In this document: piece after piece, positions 12,790 to 40,214 of the stretch
Layout of the letters: each line of letters begins with the position of its first letter
Numbering within the stretch: position 1 is the first letter of the stretch
Origin: Octopus sinensis
Lineage: Eukaryota
DNA: 53,447 nucleotides
Assembly: GCF_006345805.1 (NCBI RefSeq)
Contig: NW_021833882.1
Location: 1 to 53,447, forward strand
Direction: 5' to 3'
Notes under the pieces: model-generated
The model's database searches: none
Told to the model about the DNA's origin: nothing
What the model saw: only the letters and a program-made list of their open reading frames with translations
Position numbers and translations under genes: made by a program

Positions 12790-13000
12790 GAGTAGTTGTG
12801 GTAAATGCCTAGTGGTATTTCGTCTGTCTTTACGTTCTGAGTTCAAATTCCACCGAGGTCGACTTTGCTTTTCATCCTTTCGGGGTCGATTAATTAAGTA
12901 CCAGTTACGCACTGGGGTCGATGTAATCGACTTAATTCGTTTGTCTGTGCATGTTTCTTCCTTCTATGTTTAGCCCCTTGTGGGCAATGAAGAAGTAAGA
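12790..13000 (+). mobile_element. SINE family C (B-box gagttcaaattc; gcctttcatcctttcggggtcgata core resembling the Meta domain)
   Basis: Homologous to 33791, 44824 and the array units; the Meta-domain similarity is recalled, not computed. Confidence 0.8.
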
Positions 13001-20061: not shown

Positions 20062-20470
20062 AGCCTTTCTACTATATGCACAAAGCCTAAAATTTGGCGG
20101 GGAGGGGTAAGTCGAATACATCGACCCCATTGCTCAACTGGTACTTAATTTATCAACCTCGAAAGGATGAAAGGCAAAGTCAACCTCAGCAGAATTTGAA
20201 CTAAAAATGTAGCGGCAGACGAAATACCTATTTCTTTATTACCCACAAGGGGCTAAACACAGACGGGACAAACAAGGACGAACAAACGGATAAAGTCGAT
20301 TACATCGACCCCAGTGCGTAACTGGTACTTCAAACCTTTGGTATCGAACCCGAACGGATGAAGGCAAAGTCGAACTCGACGGAATAACAATTGAATCAGA
20401 ACGTACGGCAGGCGAAAAATGGCTACGCATTTCGCCCGGCGTGCTAACGATTCTGCCACTCGCCGCCTTA
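20062..20470 (-). mobile_element. SINE family C, head plus two body units (dimer)
   Basis: Head aaggcggcgag.ggcagaatcgttagcacgccgggcg on the minus strand; body repeated twice across a gaaatacctattt junction. Confidence 0.75.
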
Positions 20471-33265: not shown

Positions 33266-33790
33266 GCTGTTGAATTAATAATAAGAGAATATCCTTGTTA
33301 TGGACAAAGGAATGGGGGGAGATATAGACCTCATCATAGCAGTTGTACACGCCGCTAATGTCACGACGCCCTGATGATAATTCTACGAAAACCTAGAAAC
33401 GTCGTTGATGGATTTAGGAAGGTTATGGCTTCAGACGAACTTTGTACATCTATGCATATCTGCTTAGCAATCTGAAACTGATTATCAAAGGACGATGAGT
33501 TTGTTATTTTATATGAAAAACTGAAGAAATCTGTTATCCACATCCAATTGTTTGATACATCCAAGTGTTTGACACATCTGTTTGACACGTTCAACTCACA
33601 CAAAGTAAGTCGAAATCTATTTCATTCTTAAATATAAATTTAGATCGAAATTAGCAGATGTAATCAAATTCTAATTTCTTAACCTTACCTCTCTCTGCTT
33701 CCCGTGGAACATCGGGTGACGAAGGAGCTCAACTCGGCACCGTTGCAAACCCCGTCGTGAGCCTGCTTCCATGCAAGGGCTATACCTGCT

Positions 33791-34208
33791 AAGGCGGCGA
33801 GCTGGCAGAAACGTTAGCGCGCCGGGCGAAATGCGTAGCCGTATTTCGTCTGCCGTTACGTTCTGAGTTCAAATTCTGCCGAGGTCGACTTTGCCTTTCA
33901 TCCTTTCGGGGTCGATAAATTAAGTACCTGTTACGCACTGGGGTCGATCTAATCGACTTAATTCCTTTGTCTGTCCTTGTTTGTCCTCTCTGTGTTTAGC
34001 CCCTTGTGGGTAGTAAAAAATAGGTATTTCGTCTGCCGTTACGTTCTGAGTTCAAATTCGGCCGAGGTCGACTTTGCCTTTCATCCTTTCGGAGTCAATA
34101 AATTAAGTACCAGTTACGCACTGGGGTCGATCTAATCGACTTAATCCCTTTGTCTGTCCTTGTTTGTCCCCTCTATGTTTAGCCCCTTGTGGCCAATAAA
34201 GAAATATA
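33791..34208 (+). mobile_element. SINE family C, head plus 2 x 183-bp body, with TSD
   Basis: TSD tatacctgct (33781-33790) / tataccagct (34209-34218); units start gtatttcgtc at 33841 and 34024. Confidence 0.9.
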
Positions 34209-34482
34209 TATACCAGCTGAATTATCCTCCATAGTCCATAACTAGTTAGTGTCGCCTCTTACGCTCCAGCTCTAGACTCCTGTCAACATAAGCTTTCATT
34301 GGTCTCTTTCTGAACAACTTTTCTTGAACGTCTTCCACCATCTCTCGGGGACCGTATCCTGCGTGTCACTCAAACTGGTCTTTTCTCTGACTTCGACAGT
34401 CGCATCACCAAATTCATAATACAGTTCTAAGGCGACATCCTTGGAAGACATCTGCCATTTCTATAGATTCTGTAATTCTGTA

Positions 34483-34797
34483 GGTTGCATGGCTCAGTGG
34501 TTAGAGCGTTGAGCTTACGATCGTGAGGTTGTGAGCTCGAATCCTGGACCCGGCTGCGTGCTGTGTTCTTGAGCAAGACACTTTATTTCACGTTGCTCCA
34601 GTTCACTCAGCTGTAGAAATGAGTTGCGACATCACAGGTGTCTTTCCCTTGGATAACACTGGCGGTGTGGAGAGGGGAGGCCAGTATGCATGGGCGACAG
34701 CTGGTCTTCCATAAACAACCTTGCCCGGACTTGTGCCTGAGAGGGTAATTTTCTATGTGCAATCCCATGGTCAGTGTCGTGACTGAAGGGGGTCTCA
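34483..34797 (+). mobile_element. tRNA-derived SINE family D
   Basis: tggctcagtggttagagcg...gctcgaatcc head; cttgagcaagacactttatttcacgttgctccag core shared with 35281. Confidence 0.85.
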
Positions 34798-35280
34798 GTA
34801 GGTTCTATAATTCTATATATTCTGCTGGTCTTTTACACGTCTCACGGGCTTAAGTCGCTGTCAACATTACGATTGATGTATATAGATGGAATTTAGTATC
34901 TTGGCTGATGGATAAGTTGGACTATACAGGCTTCAGTTGGTAGAAGACCACCGATTCGCCGAGTCTCCAAATCACTTTCCAAAGTTTTATCGTTAGTTAT
35001 CTTACTGTCCTGGGACGTGAACGAATCAGTGGTCCCCAGAGTTTGGCCCTCCAGCCCGACATGTTGCTACTGTGCTTCCTTAATAATCTTTACTTCCGTT
35101 TTTTCATTATTGGGGTGGGGTGGAGTCGTATCTTATACTTGCGTAGATGTGGCACAAGGAGTCCCAGACCTGTATGTATGTATGTATGTATGTATGTATG
35201 TATGTATGTATGTATGTATGTATGTACGTATGTATGTATGTGTGTATGTATGTATGTATGTATGTATGTATGTATGTGAA

Positions 35281-35597
35281 GGCGCGTGGCTTAGTGGTTA
35301 GGGCATTCGGCTCACGATTGTAAGGTCGTGAGTTCAATTCTCGGCAACGCGTTGTGTCCTTGAGCAAGACACTTTATTTCACGTTGCTCCAGTCCACTCA
35401 GCTGGCAAAGATGAGTTGTACCTGTATTTCAAAGGGTCAGTCTTGTCATGCTCTGTGTCCCGCTGAACCTCCCCGAGAACTACGTTAGGGGTACACGTGT
35501 CTGTGGAATGCTCAGCCACTTGCACGTTAATTTCACGAGCAGGCTGTTCCGTTGATCGTATCAGCTGGGACTCTCGTCGTCGCAACTGACGGAGTGC
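35281..35597 (+). mobile_element. tRNA-derived SINE family D variant in (ATGT)n
   Basis: ggcgcgtggcttagtggttagggc...gagttcaattc; same core as 34483 but a different tail. Confidence 0.85.
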
Positions 35598-35710
35598 TCC
35601 TATGTATGAATGTATGTATGTATGTATGTATGTATGTGTGAGTGAGTGTGTGTATACGTGTTTATATGTGCATGTATGTATAACAGGACACATACACGCG
35701 CACACGCACG

Positions 35711-35761
<51 letters not shown>

Positions 35762-35878
35762 AAGGTTTCAAGAGAGAATCAGGTACTTAAATGGTAGGCA
35801 CCAAGTTGGGTCGAATTAACTTGTAAACGCCACCTTTAGTCGAATAAACTATGGAGGATAATTCAGCTGGTATATATA

Positions 35879-38117
35879 TTTCTTTATTGGCCACAAGGGG
35901 CTAAACATAGAGGGGACAAACAAGGACAGACAAAGGGATTAATCGATTAGATCGACCCCAGAGCGTAACAGGTACTTAATTTATCGACCCCGAAAGGATG
36001 AAAGGCAAAGTCGACCTCGGCAGAATTTGAACTCAGAACGTAACGGCAGACGAAATACCTATTTTTTACTACCCACAAGGGGCTAAACACAGAGGGGACA
36101 AACAAGGACAAACAAAGGGATTAATCGATTAGATCGACCCCAGAGCGTAACAGGTACTTAATTTATCGACCCCGAAAGGATGAAAGGCAATGTCGACCTC
36201 GGCAGAATTTGAACTCAGAACGTAACGGCAGACGAAATACCTATTTTTTACTACCCACAAGGGGCTAAACACAGAGAGGACAAACAAGGACAGACAAAGG
36301 AATTAAGTCGATTAGATCGACCCCAGTGTGTAAGAGGTACTTAATTTATCGACCCCGAAAGGATGAAAGGCAAAGTCGACCTCGGCAGAATTTGAACTCA
36401 GAACGTAACGGCAGACGAAATACCTATTTTTTACTACCCACAAGGGGCTAAACACAGAGGGGACAAACAAGGACAGACAAAGGAATTAAGTCGATTAGAT
36501 CGACCCCAGTGCGTAACTGGTACTTAATTTATCGACCCCGAAAGGATGAAAGGCAAAGTCGACCTCGGCAGAATTTGAACTCAGAACGTAACGGCAGACG
36601 AAATACCTATTTTTTACTACCCACAAGGGGCTAAACACAGAGAGGACAAACAAGGACAGACAAAGGAATTAAGTCGATTAGATCGACCCCAGTGCGTAAC
36701 TGGTACTTAATTTATCGACCCCGAAAGGATGAAAGGCAAAGTCGACCTCGGCAGAATTTGAACTCAGAACGTAACGGCAGACGAAATACCTATTTTTTAC
36801 TACCCACAAGGGGCTAAACACAGAGAGGACAAACAAGGACAGACAAAGGAATTAAGTCGATTAGATCGACCCCAGTGCGTAACTGGTACTTAATTTATCG
36901 ACCCCGAAAGGATGAAAGGCAAAGTCGACCTCGGCAGAATTTGAACTCAGAACGTAACGGCAGACGAAATACCTATTTTTTACTACCCACAAGGGGCTAA
37001 ACACAGAGAGGACAAACAAGGACAGACAAGGAATTAAGTCGATTAGATCGACCCCAGTGCGTAAATGGTACTTAATTTATCGACCCCGAAAGGATGAAAG
37101 GCAAAGTCGAACTCGGCAGAATTTGAACTCAGAACGTAACGGCAGACGAAATACCTATTTTTTACTACCCACAAGGGGCTAAACACAGAGAGGACAAACA
37201 AGGACAGACAAAGGAATTAAGTCGATTAGATCGACCCCAGTGCGTAAGAGGTACTTAATTTATCGACCCCGAAAGGATAAAAGGCAAAGTCGACCTCGGC
37301 CGAATTTGAACTCAGAACGTAACGGCAGACGAAATACCTATTTTTTACTACCCACAAGGGGCTAAACACAGAGGGGACAAACAAGGACAGACAAAGGAAT
37401 TAAGTCGATTAGATCGACCCCAGTGCGTAACTGGTACTTAATTTATTGACTCCGAAAGGATGAAAGGCAAAGTCGACCCCGGCAGAATTTGAACTCAGAA
37501 CGTAACGGCAGACGAAATACCTATTTTTACTACCCACAAGGGGCTAAACACAGAGAGGACAAACAAGGACAGACAAAGGAATTAAGTCGATTAGATCGAC
37601 CCCAGTGCGTAACAGGTACTTAATTTATCGACCCCGAAAGGATGAAAGGCAAAGTCGACCTCGGCCGAATTTGAACTCAGAACGTAACGGCAGACGAAAT
37701 ACCTATTTTTTACTACCCACAAGGGGCTAAACACAGAGAGGACAAACAAGGACAGACAAAGGAATTAAGTCGATTAGATCGACCCCAGTGCGTAACTGGT
37801 ACTTAATTTATCGACCCCGAAAGGATGAAAGGCAAAGTCGACCTAGGCCGAATTTGAACTCAGAACGTAACGGCAGACGAAATACCTATTTTTTACTACC
37901 CACAAGGGGCTAAACACAGAGAGGACAAACAAGGACAGACAAAGGAATTAAGTCGATTAGATCGACCCCAGTGCGTAACTGGTACTTAATTTATCGACCC
38001 CGAAAGGATGAAAGGCAAAGTCGACCTCGGCAGAATTTGAACTCAGAACGTAACGGCAGACGAAATACGGCTACGCATTTCGCCCGGCGCGCTAACGTTT
38101 CTGCCAGCTCGCCGCCT
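35879..38117 (-). repeat. Tandem array of 12 x ~183-bp SINE family C bodies behind one tRNA-like head
   Basis: The gaaatacctattttt junction recurs every ~183 bp from ~36052 to ~37879 (11 junctions); single head at 38068-38117. Confidence 0.95.
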
Positions 38118-38297
38118 CAGCAGGTACTGAGGTACATCCTGTGAAATATTCAGAAGGGCTACTGCAAAACCTATGTCGTGTTGGTTGCACGATATCCGAC
38201 GGGTGGGGAATCCCTCTCGGTGGATTTTGAGCAAATAAATTAAATACATAAATAACAAACGACGGATAAGTGACCTTTACCCACCGCTTGTTACTTA

Positions 38298-38668
38298 CTC
38301 TCTTTTACTGGTTTCAGTCATTTGACTGCGGCCATGCTGGAGCACAGCCTTTAGTCGAACAAATCGACCCCGGGACTTATTCTATGTAAGCCTAGTACTT
38401 ATTCTATCGGGCTCTTTTGCCGAACCGCTAAGTTACGGGGACATAAACACACCAGCATCTGTTGTCATGCGATGCTGGGGAGACAAACACACACACACAC
38501 ACACATAGGGCTTCTTTTAGTTTCCGTCTACAAAATCCACTCATAAGGCTTTGGACAGCCCGAGGCTATAGTAGACGACACTTGCCCAAGGTTCCACGCA
38601 GTGGGACTGAACCCGGAACCATGTGGTTGGTAAGCAAGCTCCTTACCACACAGCCACTCCTGCGCCTA
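38298..38668 (-). mobile_element. SINE family A with 9-bp TSD
   Basis: tgttactta at 38289-38297 and 38669-38677. Confidence 0.88.
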
Positions 38669-38934
38669 TGTTACTTATATACAAATATAGTAAATGAAAG
38701 ACGGAAGATGGAATATACGATACTTTTTTTTTAATCACGACAGTTGTTTCGACACATCAAGTATCGATCCCTCACGGGTGGGACACTTAACAACTGGTTC
38801 AGGAGCATCCGGTGGTACAGATGTGTCGCTTTGGGTGGTTAACAGATATAACTCGTTAAAATAACAGTTCCACATTGTATATTCTCATTTCGCATAAAAG
38901 AAAGCAGCGAAACAAAGGATATATCTTCATTTAT

Positions 38935-39328: not shown

Positions 39329-39762
39329 AGGCGTAGGAGTGGCTGTGTGGTAAGTAGCTTGCTTACCAACCACATGGTTCCGGGTTCAGTCCCACTGCGT
39401 GGCACCATGGGCAAGTGTCTTCTACTATAGCCTCGGGCCGACCAAAGCCTTGTGAGTGCATTTGGTAGACGGAAACTGAAAGAAGCCTGTCGTATATATA
39501 TGTATACATATATGTACATATGTATATGTGTGTGTGTTTATATACGTTTGTGTGTCTGTGTTTGTCCCCCCCCCCCAACATCGCTTGAAAACCGATGCTG
39601 GTGTGTTTACGTCCCCGTAACTTAGCAGTTTGGCAAAAGAGACCGATAGAATAAGTACTAGGCTTACAAAGAATAAGTCCTGGGCTCGATTTGCTCGACT
39701 AAAGGCGGTGCTCCGGCATGGCCACAGTCAAATGACTGAAACAAATAAAAGAGTAAAAGAGT
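39329..39762 (+). mobile_element. SINE family A, full length
   Basis: Family match. Confidence 0.9.
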
Positions 39763-39847
39763 ATATATCCCTTGTTTTGCTGCTTTTGTTTCTACGAAAT
39801 GAGATAATACATTGCTGGACTGTTACTTTACCGAGTTACATCTATTT

Positions 39848-39953
39848 ATCACCCGAAGAGACACGTCTACACCGCCGGATGCTCCTGAACCAGTTGTTAA
39901 GTGTCCCAACCGTGAGGGATCGATGCTAGATTTGTCGAAACAATTGTCGTCAT
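39848..39953 (+). ncRNA. Hammerhead-like motif with CCGAAGA core and ~77-nt stem II domain
   Basis: atcac-CCGAAGA-gacacgtcta...tagatttgtc-GAAA-caattg-TC-gtcat. Confidence 0.55.
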
Positions 39954-40214
39954 TTATATAAATTCTCGTATCTTCCATCTTCCGTCCTTCGTTTGCCATT
40001 TGCCATAACGAATACTGTGAAAGTGACCGTGCTTTACCAGTAAGCAACCAGGTATAAACCATTCGTTTTATTACCTGATATATAATTACGTACATACATA
40101 CATACATATAAATTCATATATGCACACACACATGCATGCATACACACACACATACATACATACATACATACATACATACATACATACATACATACATGCA
40201 TGCATGCATGCATG

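What the first reader, a model, noticed from the sequence alone, without database searches (positions are those of the whole stretch)
33781..38127. 12-unit SINE-body array is an inverted, flank-carrying counterpart of a 2-unit SINE 1.6 kb away
Seen: the SINE at 33791-34208 (head + 2 x 183 bp, with TSD, inside an RTE remnant) reappears inverted at 35848-38127 with 12 body units. The copy carries the same non-SINE flanks: ~28 bp of RTE sequence (tataccagctgaattatcctccatagt) on one side and tacctgct on the other. It also shares the gtggccaataaag end variant, whereas the copies near 12980 and 45042 have gtgggcaat. Array units mix variants that distinguish donor unit 1 (gtacctgtt) from unit 2 (ggagtcaata, ttcggccgag). 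Inference: ordinary retrotransposition would not copy both flanks. This looks like a local templated inverted duplication with iterative template switching or rolling-circle copying of the 183-bp unit, i.e. a SINE becoming satellite DNA. Each unit keeps a Pol III B-box.
Basis: partly seen in the sequence, partly recalled or inferred. Interest (0 to 1): 0.72.

Follow-up and report, generated by a model that had tools for sequence, protein, structure and literature searches.

The report
Backwards local copy grown into array
A short jumping-gene relic, together with a few bases of its neighbouring DNA, appears again backwards 1.6 kb away as a 12-unit chain; it was likely pasted there by a DNA copying or repair slip and likely grew afterwards, joining two known processes in one clean example with no sign of a function.

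Summary
A 2-unit SINE (33791-34208, 10-bp target-site duplication, inside a LINE remnant) recurs inverted at 35848-38126 with 12 units, 28 bp of its 3' flank and 8 bp of its 5' flank; the flank junction occurs only at these two places in the 2.72-Gb assembly. New evidence: six paralogues of the target repeat show that the array replaced 7 bp, with no target-site duplication and 4-bp and 1-bp microhomologies, the signature of a DNA-templated (MMBIR/template-switch) insertion. Short-read contigs of two samples imply both junctions; two others show no branch, one of them the donor flank and an empty target. But multi-unit arrays are a family trait: 16,817 tandem joints genome-wide; 12 sampled arrays of 4-10 units, none with an inverted flank-carrying partner. 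Variants shared among array units but absent from the donor point to growth in several steps. The fine mosaic of donor units 1 and 2 (8 patterns; 32 switches if one pass) is the open, interesting part. The scan earlier found such arrays in this genome and inverted local copies in other genomes.

The parts
33781..33790 (+). 5' target-site duplication of the donor SINE (10 bp; 1 mismatch to the 3' copy)
33791..33840 (+). donor SINE head (tRNA-like, A-box-like motif at 33803; no Rfam match)
   Evidence: tRNA origin is recalled family knowledge
33841..34023 (+). donor body unit D1 (internal-type end, 6-A joint variant)
34024..34208 (+). donor body unit D2 (terminal type, rare GGCCAATAAAG end) and tail
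34209..34235 (+). 3' TSD (34209-34218) plus 17 bp of host LINE remnant: the part carried into the copy
33680..35050 (-). degenerate LINE-like host element, interrupted by the donor SINE and another SINE; RTE-like by recalled motifs, no Pfam hit
35757..35848 (+). left half of the target repeat (dispersed family); 35848 is a 1-bp microhomology
35848..35875 (-). copied 28-bp donor 3' flank, 100% identical
   Evidence: branch and doubled depth
35876..38068 (-). 12 body units A12..A01, mosaic of D1 and D2 states plus 15 cells with states absent from the donor
38069..38118 (-). copied SINE head (single)
38119..38126 (-). copied 8 bp of the donor's 5' TSD; the last 4 bp (38123-38126) are a microhomology with the target
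38123..38270 (+). right half of the target repeat; 7 bp between the halves in all 6 paralogues are missing here

Best explanation
The block at 35848-38126 is an inverted copy of the neighbouring SINE with its flanks that replaced 7 bp of another repeat, likely made by a microhomology-primed template switch during DNA repair or replication, and likely expanded to 12 units afterwards. Steps: (1, shown) a head+2-unit SINE sits in a LINE remnant with a 10-bp TSD; (2, shown) the copy spans 33783-34235 of the donor, is inverted, lacks a TSD, removes 7 bp and has 4-bp and 1-bp microhomologies; (3, inferred) a stalled or broken 3' end at about 35850 annealed by the 4-bp match at the donor's 5' TSD, copied through the SINE and 28 bp beyond, and rejoined; (4, inferred) the two-unit copy then gained units by misaligned exchange between 183-bp units, as arrays of this family do genome-wide, while short conversion tracts from the inverted donor arm or between units shuffled D1 and D2 variants.
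For: Private shared flanks and rare shared states. Empty-site structure in 6 of 6 paralogues matching both flanks in register. Polarity: in run X3 the contig over the shared flank continues into the donor's LINE flank with no branch, and contigs over the target run past 35848 into sequence like the right flank; X16 also shows no branch; X1 and X15 show a contig ending at 35877 and a shared contig at about twice the depth of single target-family contigs (103 against about 50; 70 against about 40), as expected if both junctions exist (inferred from k=31 graph logic). Every donor state is found in the array (0 donor-only), and C89, T96 and a deletion are each shared by two array units but not the donor. 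Arrays without partner are common. Random contraction of the array to two units left them different at all 7 diagnostic columns in at most 0.22% of 100,000 trials per setting (biased, since the columns were defined by the donor). Signature matches MMB-TI as described in PMC8421209 (passages read).
Against: A toy model of unequal exchange alone never gave the 8 unit patterns seen (maximum 7, in 16 of 20,000 runs), so extra conversion or switching has to be invoked and is not shown. The template is 1.6 kb away and at least 453 bp long, whereas PMC8421209 searched templates within 100 bp. The junction-spanning contig itself was not among the pieces listed, so the read support is indirect; one of X1/X15 may be the assembly's own source; X16 is shallow (depth about 7). 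The right junction and the unit count were not tested with reads. The microhomology is read from paralogues (79-86% identical on the left flank; found by a pattern that fixed 3 of the 4 bases), not from the true empty allele.
Confidence: 0.58

Rival explanations
1. One event: the polymerase that made the inverted copy slipped back repeatedly between donor units 2 and 1 (iterative template switching or rolling-circle-like copying) and laid down all 12 mosaic units at once.
For: All multi-unit polymorphism except three sites is D1/D2 variation; 8 distinct patterns exceed what simple later unequal exchange gave; multi-template MMB-TIs are described (up to five templates, PMC8421209 passage).
Against: Needs 32 switches in 2.2 kb from today's donor; a true rolling circle would give identical or strictly alternating units; variants shared by A05/A10 and A11/A12 but absent from the donor need re-copying of new mutations; arrays form elsewhere with no inverted partner (0 of 12).
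Confidence: 0.15
2. The donor was itself a long array when it was copied; the copy kept the length and the donor later shrank to two units, perhaps because long inverted arms are unstable.
For: TSD-flanked arrays of 7-10 units exist; two order-preserving deletions plus 2 mismatches turn the array into the donor.
Against: The unit order fits no better than shuffled orders (p=0.66, 3,000 shuffles); random contraction rarely keeps both states at all 7 columns (biased test); no simulated contraction matched the donor exactly.
Confidence: 0.15
3. RNA route: a read-through Pol III transcript of the donor (starting in the TSD, running past the tail) was reverse-transcribed into a break without endonuclease, as in non-classical SINE insertions (recalled).
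For: No run of four T's in the donor until 34319, so read-through past the 28-bp flank is possible; after the 4-bp microhomology only 4 bases upstream of the head are donor-specific.
Against: Landing within 2 kb of the source in 2.72 Gb is about a one-in-a-million coincidence for a diffusible RNA (inference); the copy ends with no tail and at no terminator; no TSD.
Confidence: 0.04
4. Assembly or polishing artefact: the array, its unit count or the mosaic is wrong in this unplaced 53-kb contig.
For: The window is a whole small unplaced contig; long reads were not available; two 1-bp deletions in homopolymers look like residual errors.
Against: Branch at the predicted base and doubled depth in two samples from two studies; the target halves are in register with paralogues; both flanks are single-copy in the assembly as far as searched; errors would not recreate rare donor states in blocks.
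Confidence: 0.08

Closest known systems
Microhomology-mediated templated insertions (MMB-TI / MMBIR; PMC8421209, passages read) and short-range template switches (PMC7954356, abstract only)
   Same: Insertion near and inverted to its template, flanked by microhomology, germline variant; multi-template events occur.
   Different: Template is 1.6 kb away and at least 453 bp long (that study searched within 100 bp); the template is a tandem SINE and the product has 12 units against the template's 2.
TSD1-(SINE)n-TSD1 arrays of the blood clam Scapharca broughtonii (PMC11481361, passages read)
   Same: One complete head, repeated head-less units, a last unit with complete tail; 4-15 units.
   Different: This array has no TSD of its own: it carries the donor's TSD bases and flank and sits inverted beside its source. 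Other arrays in this genome do fit that structure (5 of 12 with TSD of 10 or more matched bases).
SINE-derived satellites sSat1-3 of squamates (PMC10702118, parts 3 and 4 of 5 of the text read)
   Same: Tandem repeats of a SINE part, unit near 150-180 bp, minor variants keeping both SINE termini, unit number variable between orthologues.
   Different: 12 units only; no higher-order spread shown; the parts read describe no inverted flank-carrying partner.
Octopus tRNA-derived SINEs of Ohshima and Okada 1994 (cited in PMC4758252, passage; names OK/OR1/OR2 partly recalled)
   Same: Very abundant tRNA-like head (29,370 exact 20-mers) with body variants; sequence recalled as octopus-type.
   Different: Family assignment was not tested against a reference sequence; no Rfam match.

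Membership tests
MMB-TI / template-switch insertion | Insertion inverted relative to a nearby template | tested here: met
   arms 33783-34235 and 35848-38126, 1,612 bp apart
MMB-TI / template-switch insertion | Microhomology at the junctions | tested here: met
   4 bp at 38123-38126 (5 of 6 paralogues) and 1 bp at 35848 (6 of 6); read from paralogues
MMB-TI / template-switch insertion | No TSD; small loss at the target | tested here: met
   7 bp absent against 6 of 6 paralogues and loose-end consensus in X1, X3
MMB-TI / template-switch insertion | Template within 100 bp (operational limit of MMBSearch) | tested here: not met
MMB-TI / template-switch insertion | Dependence on break-repair polymerases | not testable with these tools
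   needs genetics
Ordinary SINE retrotransposition (TPRT) | New TSD around the copy | tested here: not met
   Apparent TSD is the donor's, internal to the copy; target lost 7 bp
Ordinary SINE retrotransposition (TPRT) | Copy ends at the SINE tail | tested here: not met
   Copy runs 28 bp into donor flank and ends without a tail
TSD1-(SINE)n-TSD1 array | One head, head-less internal units, terminal unit with full tail | tested here: met
TSD1-(SINE)n-TSD1 array | Own TSD flanking the array | tested here: not met
SINE-derived satellite | Tandem units derived from a SINE part, homogeneous within the locus | tested here: met
   12 units, mean identity 0.970 against a median of about 0.91 to family units
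SINE-derived satellite | Long arrays, subtelomeric or heterochromatic location | not testable with these tools
   unplaced contig; longest other array sampled had 10 units
Pol III type 2 promoter per unit | A-box and strict B-box in each unit | tested here: not met
   0 of 12 strict B-box matches; one A-box-like motif, in the head only (motifs recalled)
RTE-clade LINE (host) | RT or RTE-associated domain | tested here: inconclusive
   No Pfam hit; collinear coding-like homologues elsewhere

The most novel reading that the evidence does not exclude
Break repair itself seeded the array: one microhomology-primed synthesis event cycled about ten times through a two-unit SINE, switching between its units, and turned a dimer into a 12-mer in one step; the inverted donor then keeps feeding variants into the array by conversion. 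That would be a DNA-repair route from SINE to satellite, caught with its template still beside it.
Probability: 0.15. Interest if true: 0.62.

Novelty: new member of a known kind. Interest (0 to 1): 0.33.

Why it matters
Both parts are known: nearby inverted templated insertions, and SINE-body arrays. The locus is useful because source, copy, empty site and carriers versus non-carriers are all at hand, so the open question of how a SINE dimer becomes an array (one burst, stepwise exchange, or conversion from a paired arm) could be read directly from population long reads. I found no paper describing this combination in four searches, which is weak evidence of absence. There is no sign of function.

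Tried and rejected
Shared flank as subfamily consensus: rejected (2 hits genome-wide; 5' motif is a TSD in 2 of 3 outside copies). Haplotig duplicate of a chromosome locus: no near-identical second copy of either flank tested (the search skips common words). First read lay (35757-35990) was swamped by 20,000-45,000 SINE contigs per run and gave no junction; the narrower lay was used. No contig spanning the junction was listed in any run; the tool filters records and cuts tables, so this is no evidence either way. A genome-wide count of arrays with three or more joints could not be run, so array sizes come from 60 stretches chosen around listed joints, 58 of them on one contig and enriched for clustered joints and the 6-A variant: not a random sample. 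Of 190 flank probes, the 20 hits outside the window were own TSDs, adjacent SINE pieces, one self-palindrome and one direct duplication (L057) (classed by eye). Order test for donor contraction: not significant. Rfam on the donor: 0 matches. Pfam on host LINE and relatives: nothing relevant. No credible gene among long open frames in the window (by eye). Look-up of earlier findings by sequence: none.

Full report
Setting. The window is a whole unplaced contig of 53,447 bp in a 2.72-Gb assembly, rich in microsatellites and SINEs. That it is an octopus rests on my recall of the SINE sequence and on earlier scan notes, not on a direct test.

Observation. A SINE head and two 183-bp body units lie at 33791-34208 within a 10-bp TSD with one mismatch. 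The same head and 12 units lie inverted at 35848-38126. The inverted block carries 28 of 28 identical bases of the donor's 3' flank and 8 bases of its 5' TSD. The 29-mer across tail and flank occurs twice in the genome, both times here. The 5' flank+head motif occurs 5 times; in two of the three outside copies it is visibly their own TSD. Among 213 family units from 60 other stretches, states shared by donor and array are rare: T88 1, C108 3, G36 0, GGCCAATAAAG 0. The 6-A joint has 67 exact hits, 11 in this contig, against 16,817 for the common joint. Common local origin is therefore shown. The host is a degenerate coding-like repeat, collinear across the SINE with copies elsewhere; Pfam gave no support for 'RTE'. 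The per-unit 'B-box' fails the strict motif in 12 of 12 units, and the only A-box-like motif is in the head.

The insertion site. Both flanks of the array belong to one dispersed repeat. Six paralogues match the left flank (79-86%) and the right flank in register and have 7 bases between them that are missing here. There is no TSD. The right junction has a 4-base match between target and donor in 5 of 6 paralogues (the search pattern fixed 3 of these 4 bases), the left junction 1 base in 6 of 6. Inversion, proximity, microhomology and a small loss are the described signature of microhomology-mediated templated insertions (PMC8421209, passages; PMC7954356, abstract), though that study looked only within 100 bp.

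Independent data. Four of 24 listed runs were laid on 35757-35882. In X1 and X15, from two studies, one contig over the shared flank ends at 35877 and another continues at about twice the depth of single target-family contigs (103 against about 50; 70 against about 40). With 31-base words, that is the pattern expected when the shared flank has two different neighbours, the donor's LINE and the target repeat; this is inference, as the junction-spanning contig was not listed. X3 has one unbranched contig whose loose end is the donor's LINE flank, and its target contigs, including two overlapping ones at single-copy depth with few differences, run past 35848; the consensus of six loose ends there resembles the right flank. 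X16 also has no branch but is shallow. So the donor is likely older and the inverted copy absent from some animals. One of X1 and X15 may be the assembly's source. The right junction and the unit count were not tested.

Is the array tied to the copying? Arrays are a family trait. In 60 stretches chosen around listed joints (not random) there were 102 elements with at least one full unit, 12 of them with 4-10 units; 5 of those 12 had a TSD of 10 or more matched bases by a crude script, and none had an inverted flank-carrying partner within about 5 kb. One stretch (L057) holds a direct, flank-carrying duplication. Earlier scan notes report 11- and 13-unit arrays inside a TSD in this genome (unreviewed). 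The same architecture is in print for the blood clam (PMC11481361, passages), and SINE-derived satellites for squamates (PMC10702118, parts 3-4 of 5). PMC13282606 (passages) does not discuss SINE arrays in the passages holding 'SINE' or 'tandem'; its supplements were not read.

The mosaic. At 7 body columns that separate D1 from D2 the 12 units show 8 patterns. Every donor state occurs in the array; 15 cells hold states absent from the donor, and three of these states are shared by two units (C89 in A05 and A10; T96 and a deletion in A11 and A12), which needs copying after new mutation. A single pass over today's donor needs 32 switches. Shrinking the array to the donor needs 2 deletions and 2 mismatches, but the order is no better than shuffled (p=0.66), and random contraction kept both states at all 7 columns in at most 0.22% of trials (biased by how columns were chosen). 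Against my own reading, a toy model of unequal exchange alone reached at most 7 patterns, in 16 of 20,000 runs, so conversion from the paired donor arm, or more switching during the original event, is needed. This is the unresolved part.

Verdict. A real, locus-specific inverted templated insertion (about 0.9 for that step) whose cargo belongs to a SINE family that forms arrays anyway. Most likely history: copy as a dimer, then stepwise growth with conversion (0.58); one-burst synthesis (0.15) and donor contraction (0.15) remain open. Four paper searches showed no description of this exact combination, but each part is known, and the scan has noted inverted local copies at SINEs in other genomes. 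Interest 0.33.

Noticed in passing
L057:4355-6026 (G000:C1 about 24,702,650-24,704,330): Three SINE elements (3, 2 and 2 units) in direct orientation share 5' and 3' flanks; a 958-bp stretch is duplicated at 95.6% identity: a direct, flank-carrying local duplication of the same family.
   Followed up: partly
window 38113-38132: The right junction forms a perfect 6-bp hairpin with a 6-base loop; it is perfect only through one change against the donor and one against the paralogue consensus, which may be a quasi-palindrome correction.
   Followed up: no
L045, L049, L052, L099; window array: In many arrays internal units end with one joint type and the last unit with another, consistent with the earlier notes' idea that young copies insert at a fixed spot in older ones.
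   Followed up: partly
L036, L038; window 33781-33790: Two unrelated copies have TSDs ending in the same 6-8 bases as the donor's; selected by my pattern, so a target preference is untested.
   Followed up: no
L047:4333-5393, L055:5993-6310: SINE bodies joined directly to an inverted piece of the same family.
   Followed up: no
window 38300-38933 and 39573-39962: Two different repeats recur inverted about 0.8-1.1 kb apart at 91% and 83% identity; probably independent insertions of common families.
   Followed up: partly
window 20108-20470: A two-unit copy whose second unit ends in a different tail type, as do many genomic copies: the family mixes two body endings behind one head.
   Followed up: no
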